From: a virus
Length of the DNA: 64,000 nucleotides
Reading direction: 5' to 3' (one strand)
IMG/VR virus record: IMGVR_UViG_3300002052_000002
Coordinates: 32,001-96,000 of that record
Shown piece after piece: positions 518-16,482 of this stretch. Both the position numbers and the translations under genes were made by a program. The notes under the pieces are model-generated. The model did no database searches, was not told the DNA's origin, and saw only the letters and a program-made list of their open reading frames with translations. How positions within the stretch are numbered: the first letter of the stretch is position 1; each line of letters opens with the position of its first letter.

Positions 518-1520
518 TGTTATTCCTTTTTAGTTTCTCTTCGGCATTGGAACAACTACTATATTGAAGCACTCAGTTTCATGTTATCGTGTTGAACTGA
601 GTGGGTAAACCATCACTCTCTATTGACTTAGAAGCTTCCGCTTCTCTCTCTGCATTTTAGTTGACGGCTTTCCACTTTAGTCCGCCTGATTACCAGATTA
701 GGATGAACGCTTGTATTAACTCCCATATCATCCTTACTTGGAGCATATAATCTATGTAGGCTTTTATTCCTTGCCATAGATAGCAGGTAATATTTCAGCT
801 CTCCTTGGTTTATCTCCGAACGTAACCAACTTGGTTACTTGACTGTTTCCCTCTCTCCGCTTACTCAAGTGTATAAGCAGAATTCACGGCTTATTTCTTG
901 CCTTAATCTGTAGCTTAGATAGGCAAGCTACTTTAGGCAATAACACCGTGAGAGAGTAAACCCAAGAGCTTTCTCCGTTACCACGGCTTCGGTATACCCC
1001 GCAGGATAACCAGCGTTTTTGTTGACGGGGAACTCGCATCCATAAGGCGTTGCCTTTATCCGCTGTTACAAGCTGGCATCACCAGTCCATCTGTGCAACT
1101 GGCTTGCTACTTGTTAAGAATCGCTATGTTACAGTAAGGTATCCGCTTAGGGTATATATCCGACCACCTTTCGTATGGCTCCACCCATCATCTTCTAACC
1201 CTCACATAGCTAATAGTTGTCACCAAGCTAATGAAACTTGATGGAAAGTTTAAAGGAGTTTAACCATTTTTCGTTGACTATCGCATCCCTTGTGTGAGAT
1301 ACCAGTTAAGGGATGTCCAAGTTATCCACTCCTCAAGGCAGGCATATAATATTTGAGTCCTCTAAGGTTCGCATTTATCCGAAAGTTAATTGGCATTATG
1401 ACGAATAAATCATTTGAACCGCTCTACCCTTATATGCCACATATATTCAGGCACTTTCAAGCCTTGGCTATATGCAAGCCATATATGATGTTATCTCTAT
1501 GCTTATATTAGCCATAGAGA
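518..1520 (-). ncRNA. large multi-helix structured non-coding RNA (ROOL/GOLLD-like size class, family unassigned); ends approximate
   Basis: About 1 kb without a credible ORF. Long-range closing helices 1211-1226/547-561, 1233-1238/532-537, 1252-1257/524-529; nested helices 570-603, 750-781, 797-812/957-970, 822-838, 885-950, 897-927, 1123-1129/1204-1210, 1284-1315, 1341-1349/1430-1438. Confidence 0.75.
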
Positions 1521-1549
1521 ATTGCATCCATACCATAGAATAGAGTAGG

Positions 1550-1816
1550 TCAGTCTATAAATTGTTTCATATCACCAGCTTTGCGAAGAATAATAGTGGG
1601 AATAAACTTCTTCTTAGCTATTCCCCTTGCATTCTTATTGAATATCTTAATCTTCGCTCTGCCCTTTACCATCAAAGCACCCTCATTACATTTGCCATAC
1701 CGAACTCTATGGCGTATAATATCCCAGTTGGTATGACCCTTAAGGTGTCGCTTTATATGTCCGTAAGCGTGGCGTCTATGATAGCATTTAATTCCTATCA
1801 TCTTTAAGCTCCACAA
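1550..1816 (-). CDS. hypothetical basic protein (true start may be about 1798)
   Basis: ORF track; packed against neighbouring minus-strand ORFs. Confidence 0.55.
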   Translation of the reverse strand: MWSLKMIGIKCYHRRHAYGHIKRHLKGHTNWDIIRHRVRYGKCNEGALMVKGRAKIKIFNKNARGIAKKKFIPTIILRKAGDMKQFID

Positions 1817-1988
1817 AGAGCAGAGTCTTAAGCATCTCCATCACTTCCCAATATGCGGAAGCCTTACCCTCAAAGTAAGCCTTAAGTTGCTTACTATTTC
1901 TCTTCTCTTCTGCTTCTTCCACAATGGTCTGTGCTGTATGATGCTTAGACGCTAAACTCTCCAGTATTCTTTCGATAGCCTTTCTCAT
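1788..1988 (-). CDS. hypothetical helical protein
   Basis: ORF track; RBS AAAGGAG; overlaps upstream stop. Confidence 0.7.
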   Translation of the reverse strand: MRKAIERILESLASKHHTAQTIVEEAEEKRNSKQLKAYFEGKASAYWEVMEMLKTLLFVELKDDRN

Positions 1989-2164
1989 ATGCCACGCTCC
2001 TTTCTGCTACCAATATTCCTGCGTTTTATTTCAGCAGGATAATAGCACTTAAAGTCCTGCGTGGCATTAGGCTTCTTATGGAGCAGATTCATTTTGAGCC
2101 TGTCGCCGCAGGATTGACAGCATTTAGTCGGATGTAAGTCCGTGTTTTTATAAGGCTTCTTCAT
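1985..2164 (-). CDS. hypothetical Cys-containing protein
   Basis: ORF track 1985-2200, start moved to ATG 2164 behind AAAGGGG; CQSC motif. Confidence 0.6.
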   Translation of the reverse strand: MKKPYKNTDLHPTKCCQSCGDRLKMNLLHKKPNATQDFKCYYPAEIKRRNIGSRKERGI

Positions 2165-2291
2165 CGACTTTCCCCTTTCTATCTCCTTTAATCGTTCCAT
2201 ACACTATTAAGTATGCTAATACACACAAGCAAGGAAACCACAAAGGAGATGTGAAGAATAGAATTGTCAGCATAAATGCATATGCTTCCAT
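2148..2291 (-). CDS. small membrane peptide (47 aa), not in ORF track
   Basis: MEAYAFMLTILFFTSPLWFPCLCVLAYLIVYG...; RBS GGGAAGGAG. Confidence 0.65.
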   Translation of the reverse strand: MEAYAFMLTILFFTSPLWFPCLCVLAYLIVYGTIKGDRKGKVDEEAL

Positions 2292-2326
2292 ATTATTCTC
2301 CTTCCCGACTAACCTACTCTATTCAA

Positions 2327-2338
2327 TTTTCAAAGAAC
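2327..2338 (-). promoter_or_regulatory. boxA-like antitermination motif
   Basis: GTTCTTTGAAAA(TTGAATA), matching the rrn-type boxA pattern GYTCTTTGAAAA. Confidence 0.7.
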
Positions 2339-2340
2339 GG

Positions 2341-2455
2341 GGACTCATCAGTGTAGCTATGAGCTACATATAGGGGAGCATCAGATTGATTTGGGTTTGC
2401 ATTCACGCAGTTTAGTTGCGGAAATCAACCTTCAACTGCTCCCTCTATTTCGTCC
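2341..2455 (-). ncRNA. type II hammerhead ribozyme with extended stem III
   Basis: GGAC-GAAA-[UAGAGGGAGCA...UGCUCCCCUA]-UA-[UGUAGCU-CAU-AGCUACA]-CUGAUGA-GUCC; full catalytic core; predicted cleavage after AUA, between 2369 and 2368. Confidence 0.9.
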
Positions 2456-2518
2456 TTCTATGCAGGTTGGAATTGTCCGTATAAGGGTTTAATTGCTGTA
2501 TCCAACCTTCATATAGGA
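2453..2518 (-). other. long bulged hairpin, possible RNase III site
   Basis: TCCT..TATG.AGGTTGGA / TCCAACCT.CATA..AGGA directly after the stop at 2519. Confidence 0.55.
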
Positions 2519-2692
2519 TTAATCGCCGATAGACACCTTCAACTCCTCTTCTAGTAGCGGCTTCAATTCCGCCCTATCCTGTGCATTGAACCCCTTGATT
2601 TCACGAGCGAATTCGCCAACAGACTGGTTATGGAGTTTACCAAAGAATCGGCTACAAGCAGCAGCAAAACTAATCTTCTCTCCGTCTGCCAT
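2519..2692 (-). CDS. hypothetical early protein
   Basis: ORF track; ATG 2692 behind AAAGGGGGTGA RBS. Confidence 0.75.
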   Translation of the reverse strand: MADGEKISFAAACSRFFGKLHNQSVGEFAREIKGFNAQDRAELKPLLEEELKVSIGD

Positions 2693-2717
2693 TCTTGTCA
2701 CCCCTTTCTTATTTGGA

Positions 2718-2728
2718 TTTAAAAGAAC
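2718..2728 (-). promoter_or_regulatory. boxA-like motif
   Basis: GTTCTTTTAAA directly after the 3' arm of the upstream stem. Confidence 0.5.
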
Positions 2729-2732
2729 AATA

Positions 2733-3128
2733 TAGATAAGGGATAAGGGAAGGATAGAAGATGGGAAGTAATCAAGACCATTTAGTAGCGGTATCTAAAC
2801 GCCCTTAGAACCGCCCAGAGCTTTTTCAGTTCGAGCTTATTTAGCATGGCTACATCCCATGAGAAGTGAATAGGGTAGCCATTAAGGGTATACATCGAAT
2901 CGACAGGAACCAACTCTTCTATGACCTTTGGCATTGACTCTTTACCTTTCTTTTTTTGCCAATATATGTCATGAAGAATGGAAGATGTACATCGGTATCT
3001 ATTGACCAACTTCTCATCCAACTCAATCGGCATATTGTTGACAACGATTACCATAGCGTATTCCCCTTTCTGCAGTAAAGGGAACTGCGACTTCCCTTTC
3101 CTTCTTCCTTTCCCTTTCCCTTATTCTA
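2733..3128 (-). repeat. imperfect long-range inverted repeat (purine arm 3090-3128, pyrimidine arm 2733-2769) enclosing ORF 2782-3054
   Basis: UAGAAUAAGGGAAAGGGAAAGGAAGAAGGAAAGGGAAGU versus ACUUCCCAUCUUCUAUCCUUCCCUUAUCCCUUAUCUA. Confidence 0.75.
2782..3054 (-). CDS. hypothetical early protein
   Basis: ORF track; RBS AAAGGGG. Confidence 0.75.
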   Translation of the reverse strand: MVIVVNNMPIELDEKLVNRYRCTSSILHDIYWQKKKGKESMPKVIEELVPVDSMYTLNGYPIHFSWDVAMLNKLELKKLWAVLRAFRYRY

Positions 3129-3140
3129 TTTTCAAAGAGC
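3129..3140 (-). promoter_or_regulatory. boxA-like antitermination motif
   Basis: GCTCTTTGAAAA(TAGAATA). Confidence 0.7.
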
Positions 3141-3164
3141 TGTAAAGTGGTGTCAAATAGGCAT

Positions 3165-3211
3165 AAAAAAAGCCCATATAGACGACCATTATAGTCAATC
3201 CATATGGGCTT
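3165..3211 (-). terminator. intrinsic terminator
   Basis: AAGCCCATATG...TATATGGGC followed by TTTTTTT on the minus strand. Confidence 0.8.
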
Positions 3212-3257
3212 ATATATGCTGTTATAAGCAGGAATCTGATTGACAGATTATATCGTT

Positions 3258-3802
3258 ATATCGCTCGGCTTATAAGACGGTCTATATAGGCAACAAAAGG
3301 TCGCTTAGATGATGTAATCTACAAACAACTTGGTGCAGATTACAAATCAAGCAATTCGGCCAGCAAGGTCATGTTCTTCTTCGTGGACTCCTTGACCTTA
3401 TGCTCAACGGTCTTGACGAAAGATAGGCTAAATCCGCCCTTCACAGGCTTGCCGTATATCTTTCCTTCCCGAATGAGTTTCTGGCTTTCATCGATAGGGT
3501 CATAACCCAGCTCTCGAAGAGTGTCATTTAGCGACTTCATCTTCTGGTCGCCAATGACTGGCTTGAAATAGACGGTATGGCAAGAATAGACGACTCTAGG
3601 CTTGCCATCATTCCCTAACTTAGGTGTGCCATCTTCGTTCTTTAGTGGCACTCCCCTTTCAGCGGCTTTGATATAAGCACTGATAACTGCTTCTGCAGTA
3701 GGCTTCATAGTGTTCTCCTTTCCACTCCATCTGGAGTGCGATAATGAGGGTTTAGTAGCACATAGATAGCCTATACAGACCGCCTAACAAGCCGAACGAT
3801 AT
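3258..3802 (-). repeat. 34-bp long-range inverted repeat (arms 3769-3802 and 3258-3291) enclosing ORF 3340-3708
   Basis: AUAUCGUUCGGCUUGUUAGGCGGUCUGUAUAGGC versus GCCUAUAUAGACCGUCUUAUAAGCCGAGCGAUAU: 29 Watson-Crick pairs, 4 G-U, 1 mismatch. Confidence 0.9.
3340..3708 (-). CDS. hypothetical early protein (first gene of the minus-strand unit)
   Basis: ORF track 122 aa; RBS AAAGGAG. Confidence 0.85.
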   Translation of the reverse strand: MKPTAEAVISAYIKAAERGVPLKNEDGTPKLGNDGKPRVVYSCHTVYFKPVIGDQKMKSLNDTLRELGYDPIDESQKLIREGKIYGKPVKGGFSLSFVKTVEHKVKESTKKNMTLLAELLDL

Positions 3803-3806
3803 GTAG

Positions 3807-3818
3807 TTTAGAAAGAGC
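3807..3818 (-). promoter_or_regulatory. boxA-like motif preceded by two hairpins
   Basis: GCTCTTTCTAAA; hairpins at 3821-3846 and 3851-3867 just upstream. Confidence 0.55.
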
Positions 3819-4117
3819 GTCATCGTTGCATCCGTTTGCACCGATGATTCAGTCGGCCTAACCGACTTTCGACCCCAACTTAACACGATTTTGGTTATCC
3901 ACATCGGTCGGATGGGCAAAAACTCCAATGATTTTCGATACTTCCGAATCCAAATCCACAAATTTCGATATTTCAATCGGAGAAGTGCCACCTAACCAAG
4001 GTTGTGATGAACCACATACCCCCCCACCATGCCTAAACAATCCCTTACACCGACTCCGTTTCATATAAAAACCTCGATATATAACATAGAATGCTTATCT
4101 GGACTGGAAAACCCATA

Positions 4118-14922: not shown

Positions 14923-16482
14923 TTGGCAACACCAAGCTATACGACAGGATTAACAGGATTACTTCTTGAAATGCCAAGTACTTCAGGGTGGACAGCCCTT
15001 GGTGGTGGAGCTGGTGCATTAAATGCTCCTGAGACCGATGTTTTTATCCAAGGAGCAAATTGCATTGATAAAGGTTATTGGTCATCTGCCATTAAAGGTA
15101 TGATCTATAATATGGGATCTGACCAAGCTATTCCTGCTGACAATGCCCTTTACATATGGTTCCAATATACCGCTCCTCCTTCATTAGATACAGAAGCTAA
15201 TGGTGGAATCCGAGTAATAATTGGAAGTGGAACTGGTGATTATAATTATTGGTATGTAAAAGGGAAAGATACTTATACTTACGGTGGCTGGTTTTGTGCT
15301 GTAGTAGATCCTACTATCACTCCTGATAGTGCAGTTGGTTCTCCAACAGGTGCTCATCAATATTTTGGTGGAGTAGCAAATCTCCCTGGAGATGGTCCTA
15401 GTAAAGGGTATCCTTGGTGTATAGATGCTTTTAGATACGGAAGAGACTTTTATATAGGGAATGGAGAAGATGGAGACGAAGCTACTTTTGCGGGAGCAGC
15501 GGCTACAAATGATTTATCTGGAAATAGGTATGGACAATTCCAGGCAATAGATGGTGGATATTTAATGCAGTGCCGCCTAGTTATTGGGACTGCGACTTCT
15601 GCTGTGTATTTTGAGGATGCAAATACTCAAGTAATTATAGCCAATACTAAAAGAGTTTGTGCTGATTTTAATAAACTCGAAGTTAATAATGCTTCAAGTT
15701 ATGTATCTTGGACAGCAATTTCATTCTTAGCTCTTGGAACAGTTTCAAGAGGTGATTTTGAAGCGGTAGATGACGCTGATATAAATATAGATTCCTGTAC
15801 TTTTACGGATATGGGAACCTTCCTATTTAAAAGCAATAGTGCAATCGATAACACTACCTTTAGACGATGCGGCCAGGTTACACAGAATTCAGCTGAATTT
15901 GGTGGATGTATATTTGCTAATTCTTATGCTGCAATAGCTTTGTGTGCCAATGATCCCTCAAAACTTACTGATTGCTCGTGGACTTCAACTGGAACTGGTC
16001 ATGGTATTGAATTTACTACTACAGGTGAATACACATTCAATGGAAATTCATTCAGTAATTATGGAGCAGATGAAACAACTGATGCGGCCATCTATAATAA
16101 TTCAGGTGGGCTAATCACTCTAAACATTGGTGGTGGAGGGGATGGTAGTCCGACAGTTCGAAATGGATCAGGAGCCTCTACAGTACTTTGTGCTGGATTA
16201 GTCACATTAACATTAACAAACGTGTTCTCTGGCAGTGACGTAAGGATTTTCGACCAAGCTGGACCACCTCCAAATATCTTAGCTTCGGCAGATCCTTTTA
16301 CTGCAGCTGGATCAACAGGGAATTTCGAATATTCTTATACATATTCTCCTGATACATATGTGGATGTTGTAATTCATAAAGAAGATAAACAATGGTATTT
16401 TATTAACGATTATTTATTGGGGAATGCAGATGCTAGCATCCCAATTTCCCAGTTAACTGATAGACAATACACAAACCCTTAA
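14923..16482 (+). CDS. putative virion structural protein with beta-helix-like segment
   Basis: 519 aa, Gly/Ser/Thr-rich, repeated xCxF turns. Confidence 0.7.
   Translation: MATPSYTTGLTGLLLEMPSTSGWTALGGGAGALNAPETDVFIQGANCIDKGYWSSAIKGMIYNMGSDQAIPADNALYIWFQYTAPPSLDTEANGGIRVIIGSGTGDYNYWYVKGKDTYTYGGWFCAVVDPTITPDSAVGSPTGAHQYFGGVANLPGDGPSKGYPWCIDAFRYGRDFYIGNGEDGDEATFAGAAATNDLSGNRYGQFQAIDGGYLMQCRLVIGTATSAVYFEDANTQVIIANTKRVCADFNKLEVNNASSYVSWTAISFLALGTVSRGDFEAVDDADINIDSCTFTDMGTFLFKSNSAIDNTTFRRCGQVTQNSAEFGGCIFANSYAAIALCANDPSKLTDCSWTSTGTGHGIEFTTTGEYTFNGNSFSNYGADETTDAAIYNNSGGLITLNIGGGGDGSPTVRNGSGASTVLCAGLVTLTLTNVFSGSDVRIFDQAGPPPNILASADPFTAAGSTGNFEYSYTYSPDTYVDVVIHKEDKQWYFINDYLLGNADASIPISQLTDRQYTNP

What the first reader, a model, noticed from the sequence alone, without database searches (positions are those of the whole stretch)
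1538..3870. Early mRNA region built like an rRNA operon: repeated boxA + long-range stem enclosing protein-coding genes
Seen: four boxA-like motifs on the minus strand (3818 GCTCTTTCTAAA, 3140 GCTCTTTGAAAA, 2728 GTTCTTTTAAA, 2338 GTTCTTTGAAAA). Three are followed within 5 nt by the 5' arm of a stem whose partner lies just past the enclosed ORF(s): 3769-3802/3258-3291 (34 bp), 3090-3128/2733-2769 (imperfect), 2307-2324/1538-1555 (18 bp). The three stems are unrelated in sequence. In the 34-bp and 18-bp stems five of six deviations are G-U pairs only on the transcribed strand, which points to selection at the RNA level. Known: boxA bound by NusB/NusE followed by a processing stem is how rrn operons flank 16S and 23S rRNA, and the Nus complex aids that long-range pairing. 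Inference: the phage routes its first mRNAs through host rRNA antitermination and processing, releasing end-paired, stabilised (possibly circularisable) mRNA cassettes. I do not know of this modular layout being described for phage mRNAs.
Basis: partly seen in the sequence, partly recalled or inferred. Interest (0 to 1): 0.92.

Follow-up and report, generated by a model that had tools for sequence, protein, structure and literature searches.

The report
rRNA-operon-style boxA and stems around phage genes
An uncultured 113-kb phage wraps several small early genes in long RNA helices. Each helix is preceded by an exact copy of the boxA signal that bacteria place before their ribosomal RNA genes. 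The phage therefore probably borrows the host's rRNA transcription and processing machinery for its first messages, though no experiment shows this.

Summary
Four boxA-like motifs lie on the minus strand at 3818, 3140, 2728 and 2338. Three of them are followed within 0-4 nt by the 5' arm of a long-range helix whose 3' arm sits just past the enclosed ORF(s).

- **Strength of the helices.** The 34-bp helix is the best long-range inverted repeat in the whole genome. The other two lie at or beyond the 0.5th percentile of a duplex-energy null.
- **RNA-level selection.** Three distant relatives and one metagenome contig carry helices of unrelated sequence around the same conserved first gene. Deviations are 12 G-U against 2 A-C on the transcribed strand.
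- **boxA identity.** Site 2 matches the 16S leader of a sediment MAG, from the phylum whose other MAG records are labelled Thermodesulfobacteriota, over 23 nt. In rrn operons of the five MAGs examined, the leader-trailer helix starts right after boxA or includes its 3' end, as in the phage.
- **Against the reading.** The relatives lack boxA. No promoter was found.

Verdict: an rrn-mimicking layout for mRNAs, real in sequence with an inferred mechanism. I found it nowhere in print. Earlier unchecked notes of this scan describe the same design in several other phages.

The parts
3822..3847 (-). Small hairpin directly 5' of boxA 1, in the boxB-like position of an rrn leader
   Evidence: It is paired in the MFE and centroid folds of 3150-3850. 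The hairpin-then-boxA order is that of rrn leaders (PMC10250234, PMC13753749).
3807..3818 (-). boxA 1, GCTCTTTCTAAA. The 7-nt core is intact and positions 8-9 deviate from the rrn form.
3769..3802 (-). 5' arm of helix 1, starting 4 nt after boxA 1
3340..3708 (-). ORF122, the conserved first gene of the unit. It has no Pfam or PHROG family and only weak winged-helix-like fold hits.
   Evidence: Homologues sit inside equivalent helices in G001, G002, G003 and L064. Family searches and the fold search gave nothing clear.
3258..3291 (-). 3' arm of helix 1, 48 nt after the ORF122 stop codon
3165..3212 (-). Strong intrinsic-terminator-like hairpin followed by a U run, between cassettes 1 and 2
   Evidence: Seen in the fold and in the sequence.
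3128..3156 (-). Sigma-70-like promoter TTGACA-17-GAAAAT that overlaps boxA 2
   Evidence: It matches 10 of 12 consensus positions. This is a consensus match only.
3129..3140 (-). boxA 2, GCTCTTTGAAAA. With its 3' flank it is identical over 23 nt to the 16S leader of MAG G061 (L148).
3093..3132 (-). 5' arm of helix 2, purine-rich, imperfect, and starting inside the A-tail of boxA 2
2782..3054 (-). ORF90, enclosed by helix 2
   Evidence: it has no family
2729..2767 (-). 3' arm of helix 2. It ends 1 nt before boxA 3.
2718..2728 (-). boxA 3, GTTCTTTTAAA, with no helix after it
   Evidence: -26.1 kcal/mol, the null level
2519..2701 (-). ORF60. Its homologue in relative G002 lies inside that phage's helix B.
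2341..2455 (-). Type II hammerhead-like three-way junction that ends 2 nt before boxA 4
   Evidence: The core CUGAUGA, GAAA and AUA-cleavage triplet were read. The MFE fold gives the three stems with the core unpaired, z = -4.9. Rfam does not detect it.
2327..2338 (-). boxA 4, GTTCTTTGAAAA. Its 19-mer GTTCTTTGAAAATTGAATA is identical to rrn-leader and CRISPR-leader boxA regions of several MAGs.
2307..2327 (-). 5' arm of helix 4, starting at the last A of boxA 4
1550..2291 (-). Four small ORFs (47, 71, 66 and 88 aa) enclosed by helix 4
   Evidence: they have no family
1535..1555 (-). 3' arm of helix 4. It overlaps the stop codon of the last ORF.

Best explanation
The leftward unit at 3850-1530 is built as a set of mRNA cassettes that copy the architecture of a bacterial rRNA operon.

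**Shown by sequence**
- The unit carries rrn-type boxA words on the transcribed strand.
- Three of them are followed within 0-4 nt by the 5' strand of a helix of 21 to about 40 positions. The 3' strand of each helix lies just past the enclosed ORF(s).
- The helices are selected at the RNA level, and the helix around the first gene is conserved in position in relatives.

**Inferred mechanism**
1. Host RNA polymerase transcribes the unit.
2. NusB/S10 bind each boxA and nucleate an rrn-type antitermination complex. This complex carries the polymerase through a region rich in untranslated, structured RNA, and perhaps through the terminator at 3212-3165.
3. Because boxA stays tethered near the RNA exit, the adjacent 5' arm is held until the 3' arm emerges, which favours the long-range helix. 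This is the model proposed for 16S rRNA.
4. The resulting helices of at least 20 bp are RNase III substrates. Cleavage would release separate mRNAs whose 5' and 3' ends remain paired and protected from exonucleases.

The helices are the older, conserved feature of this phage group. The boxA anchor is an addition in this lineage.
For: 1. **Motif enrichment.** 4 hits against 0.25 expected, three of them clustered on one strand within 1.5 kb.
2. **Identity with genuine boxA.**
   - Five sediment MAGs have GTTCTTTGACAA, GCTCTTTGAAAA or GTTCTTTGAAAT 70-110 nt before 16S. Four of them have GTTCTTTGACAATTGAATA in the spacer, and the fifth (L142) has GTTCTTTGACAATCGAAAA.
   - The 19-mer GYTCTTTGAAAAWWGAATA, which fits phage sites 2 and 4, occurs in 40 of 401 genomes of that phylum. 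The reversed control gave 0 hits.
   - L148, L143, L144 and L149 place the 19-mer 60-106 nt before 16S. L148 is identical to phage site 2 over 23 nt.
   - L150 and L153 place it in CRISPR leaders, the other known boxA context (PMC13753749).
3. **Same spacing as real rrn operons.** In the MAGs the leader-trailer helix begins right after boxA or includes its 3' end.
4. **Helices beyond chance.** See, and the MFE folds.
5. **Conservation with sequence turnover.** Top-scoring helices of 30, 39, 29, 32 and 18 bp sit at the syntenic place in G001, G002 (two), G003 and L064. Four of the five enclose the ORF122 homologue. The 29-bp G002 helix B encloses the ORF60 homologue.
6. **Strand asymmetry.** There are 12 G-U against 2 A-C inside six helices. 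A binomial calculation by hand gives about 0.0065.
7. **Length.** E. coli needs a leader-trailer helix of more than 17 bp. boxA tethering is proposed to promote its formation (PMC10250234).
8. **No phage-encoded factors.** The phage encodes no RNase III or NusB of its own, so host factors would be used.
Against: - No boxA lies in the early regions of the three related phages or upstream of the L064 helix. The helices therefore work without boxA.
- BoxA 1 and 3 deviate at positions 8-9 from the rrn form, and boxA 3 has no helix.
- Helix 4 alone scores at background by the gapless measure.
- A terminator and a 10/12 sigma-70-like promoter whose -10 overlaps boxA 2 suggest that cassette 2 may be its own transcript starting after boxA 2.
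- No sigma-70 promoter was found upstream of boxA 1.
- The host is unknown.
- Some 19-mer hits in MAGs are the opposite strand of an IS66-like transposase C-terminus, not boxA.
Confidence: 0.52

Rival explanations
1. The helices are functional RNA structures, acting as RNase III sites, end-protecting clamps or translational controls as in icaR mRNA. The boxA-like words have no Nus role. They would be relics of host rrn-leader sequence picked up by recombination, or part of promoters.
For: - Relatives keep the helices without boxA.
- BoxA 2 overlaps the -10 of a TTGACA-17-GAAAAT promoter-like site.
- A 5'-3' UTR pairing that makes an RNase III substrate exists without boxA in icaR mRNA (PMC3868564).
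Against: - Four copies cluster on one strand.
- Three copies sit exactly at the base of a helix, as in real rrn operons.
- Only site 2 has a -35 element.
- Two sites are identical to working boxA regions over 19-23 nt.
Confidence: 0.22
2. boxA acts only as an anti-Rho signal that protects a poorly translated, RNA-rich early unit, as it does for CRISPR arrays. Its adjacency to the helices is incidental, and the helices serve an unrelated purpose.
For: - The unit holds long untranslated stretches: hairpins, a hammerhead-like junction and about 1 kb without ORFs.
- The same 19-mer precedes CRISPR arrays in MAGs.
- More than 117 viral contigs carry the 19-mer, mostly without a following long-range helix.
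Against: - Three of four boxAs are followed at once by a helix arm. The joint chance is about 5e-7 from the null, calculated by hand.
- The spacing is the same as in real rrn leaders.
Confidence: 0.15
3. The inverted repeats act at the DNA level. They would be ends of mobile or invertible gene cassettes kept alike by recombination.
For: - Each repeat brackets whole ORFs.
- A further imperfect repeat elsewhere in the genome (genome 1753-1806/2669-2722) pairs slightly better on the non-coding strand.
Against: - G-U outnumbers A-C 12 to 2 on the transcribed strand.
- The arms are unrelated between cassettes and imperfect.
- I noticed no recombinase gene among the small ORFs next to the cassettes, which have no family match.
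- The arms sit at fixed places relative to the start and stop codons.
- The helices are part of the MFE folds.
Confidence: 0.06

Closest known systems
Bacterial rRNA operon leader and spacer: boxB hairpin, boxA, boxC, and the leader-trailer helix cut by RNase III, transcribed by the rrn antitermination complex (NusA, NusB, S10, NusG, SuhB, S4)
   Same: - The boxA word is the same, identical over up to 23 nt with one MAG rrn leader.
- At site 1 a hairpin precedes boxA.
- The 5' arm starts 0-4 nt after boxA.
- The helices are longer than 17 bp and close the transcribed unit (PMC10250234).
   Different: - The helices enclose 1-4 small protein-coding genes with ribosome-binding sites, not rRNA.
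- There are three or four such units in 2.3 kb.
- The units lie in a phage.
- No processing has been shown.
boxA in front of non-rRNA targets: suhB and other genes (Baniulyte et al. 2017, PMC5725501) and CRISPR arrays (cited in PMC13753749)
   Same: An rrn-type boxA is used outside rRNA operons, without boxB or N.
   Different: Those cases have no long-range helix attached to boxA and are cellular, not phage.
Lambdoid nut sites (boxA, boxB, N protein)
   Same: A phage recruits host Nus factors through boxA.
   Different: - Here there is no boxB hairpin after boxA.
- No N-like protein was recognised.
- The boxA is of the full rrn type.
- It is joined to an ORF-enclosing helix.
T7 early mRNA RNase III sites, and the icaR mRNA 5'-3' UTR pairing (PMC3868564)
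   Same: Double-stranded RNA elements flank coding regions and serve as RNase III substrates. In T7 they yield stable monocistronic early mRNAs (my own knowledge).
   Different: - T7 sites are local hairpins between genes.
- The icaR pairing occludes the Shine-Dalgarno site and is repressive.
- Neither is linked to boxA.

Membership tests
rrn-type boxA (NusB/S10 site) | Consensus word GYUCUUU followed by an A-rich tail, on the transcribed strand | tested here: met
   Four sites were found. Sites 2 and 4 are identical to rrn-leader boxA of MAGs over 19-23 nt. Eight nucleotides are recognised by NusB-NusE (abstract of PMC3177189, listed).
rrn-type boxA (NusB/S10 site) | Lies in untranslated RNA, 5' of the region to be transcribed processively | tested here: met
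   All four sites lie between ORFs and upstream of a ribosome-binding site. The boxA-like words inside ORFs (38723 +; genome 27906 -) are excluded.
rrn-type boxA (NusB/S10 site) | Conserved in related genomes | tested here: not met
   No consensus boxA lies in the early regions of G001-G003 or before the L064 helix.
rrn-type boxA (NusB/S10 site) | Binds NusB/S10 and confers resistance to termination | not testable with these tools
rRNA leader-trailer (RNase III processing) helix | Long-range helix of more than 17 bp formed by the sequences that flank the unit | tested here: met
   The helices have 34, about 32-40 (imperfect) and 21 positions and appear in the MFE folds.
rRNA leader-trailer (RNase III processing) helix | The 5' strand follows boxA closely | tested here: met
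   The gap is 0-4 nt in the phage. In five MAG rrn operons the helix begins right after boxA or includes its 3' end.
rRNA leader-trailer (RNase III processing) helix | Pairing is maintained by compensatory evolution at the RNA level | tested here: met
   Arms of unrelated sequence sit at the same place in five genomes. G-U outnumbers A-C 12 to 2.
rRNA leader-trailer (RNase III processing) helix | Encloses an rRNA | tested here: not met
   The helices enclose protein-coding ORFs. There is no Rfam hit in the window.
rRNA leader-trailer (RNase III processing) helix | Cleaved by RNase III or Mini-III | not testable with these tools
   No end-mapping data were available. The phage has no RNase III of its own.
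Lambdoid nut site | A boxB hairpin 3' of boxA that is bound by an N-type protein | tested here: not met
   The sequence 3' of each boxA is a long-range arm, not a local hairpin. At site 1 the hairpin lies 5' of boxA.
Invertible or mobile DNA cassette bounded by inverted repeats | Repeats act as DNA, so there is no strand bias in mismatches and a recombinase lies nearby | tested here: not met
   G-U outnumbers A-C 12 to 2 in favour of the transcribed strand. The neighbouring ORFs have no family match.

The most novel reading that the evidence does not exclude
Phages exploit the RNA-chaperone activity of the rrn antitermination complex for messenger RNAs. BoxA tethers the 5' arm to the polymerase until the 3' arm is made. 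Each early gene is thereby folded into a closed loop and cut out by RNase III as an end-paired, long-lived mRNA. The notes of this scan suggest that this layout recurs in unrelated phages, which would make it a general and undescribed route of phage gene expression.
Probability: 0.33. Interest if true: 0.82.

Novelty: new variant of a known kind. Interest (0 to 1): 0.62.

Why it matters
If true, the rrn antitermination complex is more than a device for rRNA, CRISPR arrays and a few cellular genes. It would also be a folding and processing platform that viruses use for protein-coding messages.

That would give a natural test bed for the disputed 'boxA tether promotes the leader-trailer helix' model. 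It would also explain how phages protect their first mRNAs from Rho and from exonucleases, and offer a compact design for insulated, stable expression cassettes.

This case adds a useful dissection. Relatives keep the helix but not boxA, so the two functions can be separated.

Tried and rejected
- **Cultured relatives.** blastn of the region against cultured phages gave no match.
- **Rfam.** Neither the gathering nor the E-value threshold gave a hit.
- **Protein families.** PHROGs and Pfam found no family for the enclosed ORFs. A lone weak S4-domain hit (E 0.18) was not shared by the other family members. The fold search gave only weak winged-helix rows.
- **Closed or limited tools.**
The near-identical contigs carrying P0003 and the 65%-identical P0024 could not be fetched for a fine compensatory-change test.
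  - The genome search does not draw relatives for a virus record.
  - The search for related loci with the 4-sequence alignment had no usable block.
  - The first genome-contig scan found nothing.
- **Promoter reading of the motif.** Rejected as a general explanation. Only site 2 has a -35 element (and my own reading). No good sigma-70 promoter lies upstream of boxA 1.
- **Host.** I first guessed Firmicutes from the strong Shine-Dalgarno sites. The 19-mer was in 0 of 151 genomes of the phylum of a 'Bacillota' MAG, against 40 of 401 in the phylum of a 'delta proteobacterium' MAG. However, it also occurs in many AT-rich prophage-like contigs, so the host stays open.
- **Many-copy 19-mer hits in three MAGs.** One such copy examined (L147, G335) is the antisense of an IS66-like transposase C-terminus, by my own reading of the ORF, and not boxA. 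The copies in the other two MAGs, G036 and G075, were not examined.
- **boxA-like word at genome 27906.** It lies inside an ORF.
Full report
**Setting**

The window is bases 32001-96000 of a complete 112.9-kb IMG/VR phage record. The phage has an SU10-type capsid and portal and no close cultured relative. Genes left of about 4100 run on the minus strand. The finding lies in that leftward unit.

**Observation**

All four boxA-like words are present, on the minus strand and between ORFs. The pattern GYTCTTTNWAAA occurs 4 times against 0.25 expected. The fourth lies inside a 2332-aa ORF.

The three long-range pairs head the inverted-repeat list for the first 8 kb of the window.
- In a gapless, G-U-aware scan of the whole genome, 3802-3769/3291-3258 is by far the best pair. 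It scores 28.5 on the minus strand and 21.75 on the plus strand. The next best scores 20.75.
- The 21-bp pair 2327-2307/1555-1535 scores only at background in that scan. The purine/pyrimidine pair needs a bulge.
- I therefore asked a positional question. I took the 45 nt after each boxA and looked for the best RNA duplex 150-1500 nt downstream.
- Sites 1, 2 and 4 give -57.4, -44.3 and -41.8 kcal/mol. The partners lie just past the enclosed ORFs.
- For 400 random positions the mean is -25.4, the sd 4.7 and the 0.5th percentile -41.2. Site 3 is at the null, -26.1.
- Each helix closes its cassette in the MFE fold, with z-scores of -10.2, -4.3 and -9.1.

**Is the pairing RNA-level and conserved?**

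Capsid searches found three full-length relatives at 57-61% capsid identity: G001, G002 and G003. Their early regions share almost no protein with this phage.

The top long-range inverted repeats of each relative nevertheless lie at the syntenic place and on the strand of the early genes.
- G001: 30 bp.
- G002: 39 bp and 29 bp.
- G003: 32 bp.

The G001 helix, the G002 39-bp helix and the G003 helix each enclose the homologue of ORF122. So does an 18-bp perfect helix in metagenome contig L064. The arm sequences are unrelated between genomes.

I counted only positions inside boundaries common to both strands. The six imperfect helices then hold 12 G-U and 2 A-C on the transcribed strand. A binomial calculation by hand gives about 0.0065. 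This argues for selection on RNA and against DNA-level repeats.

**Is the motif really boxA?**

The relatives have no such motif before their helices or anywhere in their early regions. Conservation therefore does not support it. Comparison with real rRNA operons does.

- I reached five sediment MAGs through cellular homologues of ORF122. Their record titles name Thermodesulfobacteriota or 'delta proteobacterium', and Aminicenantes.
- In these MAGs the 16S leader carries GTTCTTTGACAA, GCTCTTTGAAAA or GTTCTTTGAAAT 70-110 nt before 16S. The 16S-23S spacer carries GTTCTTTGACAATTGAATA in four of them and GTTCTTTGACAATCGAAAA in the fifth, L142.
- Phage site 2 is the same 12-mer as one of these leaders.
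- The 19-mer GYTCTTTGAAAAWWGAATA fits phage sites 2 and 4. It occurs in 40 of 401 genomes of that phylum. The reversed control gave no hit.
- Checked instances lie 60-106 nt before 16S: L143, L144, L148 and L149. Others lie in CRISPR leaders, where L150 has a Cas2-like ORF upstream and both L150 and L153 have a repeat array downstream. Both are known boxA contexts (PMC5725501, PMC13753749).
- L148 is identical to phage site 2 over 23 nt.
- In the five MAG rrn operons the leader-trailer helix begins right after boxA or includes its 3' end. In the phage the gap is 0-4 nt.
- At site 1 a small hairpin precedes boxA, which is the rrn order (PMC10250234; PMC13753749).

**Caveats on the boxA evidence**

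- One many-copy 19-mer hit (L147, G335) is the antisense of an IS66-like transposase C-terminus, by my own reading of the ORF. The many-copy hits in G036 and G075 were not examined.
- The 19-mer was not found in 151 genomes of the phylum of a 'Bacillota' MAG.
- It is present in more than 117 viral contigs, none next to rRNA by a simple motif test. At least 40 are AT-rich contigs that share only a sharply bounded block of about 30 nt.
- The word is therefore not phylum-specific, and the host remains unknown.
- It also shows that rrn-type boxA in phage DNA is common, mostly without a following helix.

**Layout of the unit (minus strand)**

1. Hairpin (3847-3822) and boxA 1.
2. Helix 1 around ORF122.
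3. A strong terminator-like hairpin (3212-3165), then a TTGACA-17-GAAAAT promoter-like site that overlaps boxA 2.
4. Helix 2 around ORF90.
5. BoxA 3 and ORF60.
6. Two hairpins and a type II hammerhead-like junction whose core and three stems I confirmed. It ends 2 nt before boxA 4.
7. Helix 4 around four small ORFs. Its 3' arm overlaps the last stop codon.
8. About 1 kb without ORFs.
9. A terminator-like hairpin at 514-478.

The phage has no RNase III or NusB gene.

G002 and G003 have consensus sigma-70 promoters upstream of their units, read. Host polymerase is therefore the likely enzyme. In this phage no good promoter was found.

**Mechanism**

Shown: the sequence architecture, its RNA-level conservation, and its identity with rrn signals.

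Inferred:
- NusB/S10 load at boxA.
- An rrn-type complex carries the polymerase through this RNA-rich, thinly translated unit.
- The tethered boxA keeps the adjacent 5' arm near the exit channel until the 3' arm appears. This is the model tested for 16S in PMC10250234.
- The helices of at least 20 bp are cut by RNase III, leaving mRNAs with paired ends.

The relatives show that the helix function does not need boxA. The terminator and promoter between cassettes 1 and 2 show that not every boxA need be transcribed from one promoter.

**Comparison with the known**

The closest system is the rrn leader and spacer itself. It is not a member, because the enclosed RNAs are mRNAs.
- Lambdoid nut sites differ in needing boxB and N.
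- T7 RNase III sites are local hairpins.
- The icaR 5'-3' UTR pairing (PMC3868564) lacks boxA and is repressive.
- BoxA before suhB or CRISPR arrays lacks the helix.

My literature searches found no description of boxA-plus-helix cassettes around phage genes.

Earlier notes of this scan are AI notes that I did not check. They report the same design in several other phages and in candidate-phyla bacteria. This is therefore one more instance of a recurring and apparently unpublished layout.

**Verdict**

This is a new variant of a known kind. My confidence in the full mechanism is about 0.5. That figure combines roughly 0.85 that the helices are functional RNA, 0.7 that the motifs are working boxA, and 0.5 that RNase III processes them.

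Noticed in passing
window 2341-2455 (-): A type II hammerhead-like junction. It has the CUGAUGA, GAAA and AUA-cleavage core and three stems, with a 49-nt hairpin inserted in stem III. The MFE fold reproduces it (z = -4.9). Rfam does not detect it. It ends 2 nt before boxA 4.
   Followed up: partly
window 2464-2508 and 2383-2431 (-): Two hairpins with a U(A/U)C(A/C)GCAA segment after the 5' strand. They belong to a family noted elsewhere in this genome by another reader. Another note of this scan links ACAGCAAG-loop hairpins with boxA in an unrelated prophage.
   Followed up: no
window 520-1530 (-): About 1 kb without a credible ORF, between helix 4 and a strong terminator-like hairpin (514-478). 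It is a candidate large structured RNA and has no Rfam match.
   Followed up: no
window 3340-3708 (-); P0001-P0026: ORF122 belongs to an unnamed family (motif G-I/L-H-T-V-F/Y-S-G-L-N ... R-P-x-K-x-G-F). It is the first early gene in related phages. It occurs as a tandem-duplicated 185-aa protein in MAGs labelled Thermodesulfobacteriota, Aminicenantes, Omnitrophota and 'Eubacteriales'. The AF2 model (pLDDT 84) gives only weak winged-helix hits.
   Followed up: partly
L048 (G003) about 1330-1400 and L046 (G002) about 16130-16200: A conserved non-coding block is shared by two relatives downstream of their first cassette. Its internal hairpin shows compensatory changes (ccccg/ggggc against tgggg/accca). 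Its identity is unknown.
   Followed up: no
L155-L271 (viral contigs): More than 117 viral contigs carry the 19-mer GYTCTTTGAAAAWWGAATA, none next to rRNA. At least 40 AT-rich prophage-like contigs share only a block of about 30 nt, TGTTCTTTGAAAATTGAATA(A/G)T(A/G)YGGTAT, in otherwise unrelated flanks. This looks like a widespread extended boxA in phage DNA.
   Followed up: partly
L150 and L153 (MAG loci): The same 19-mer lies in CRISPR leaders. L150 has a Cas2-like ORF upstream of the motif, and both loci have an array of roughly 35-nt repeats downstream.
   Followed up: yes
L147 (G335) and similar many-copy hits in G036 and G075: Ten to 22 copies per genome of GCTCTTTGAAAAAAGAATA. The one copy examined (L147) is the antisense of the last codons (..LILFSKS) of an IS66-like transposase, by my own reading, and not boxA. 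This is a trap for boxA pattern searches.
   Followed up: partly
genome 1753-1806 / 2669-2722 (outside the window, 30 kb to its left): A second long, imperfect inverted repeat brackets two minus-strand ORFs. It has no boxA and pairs slightly better on the plus strand (23.5 against 20.75).
   Followed up: partly
window 3905-3975 (-), L048 20-45: The motif TATCGAAA(A)T occurs twice upstream of boxA 1. The stretch ATCGAAA(A)TCATT is shared with the start of the G003 early region. It may be an operator or promoter element.
   Followed up: no
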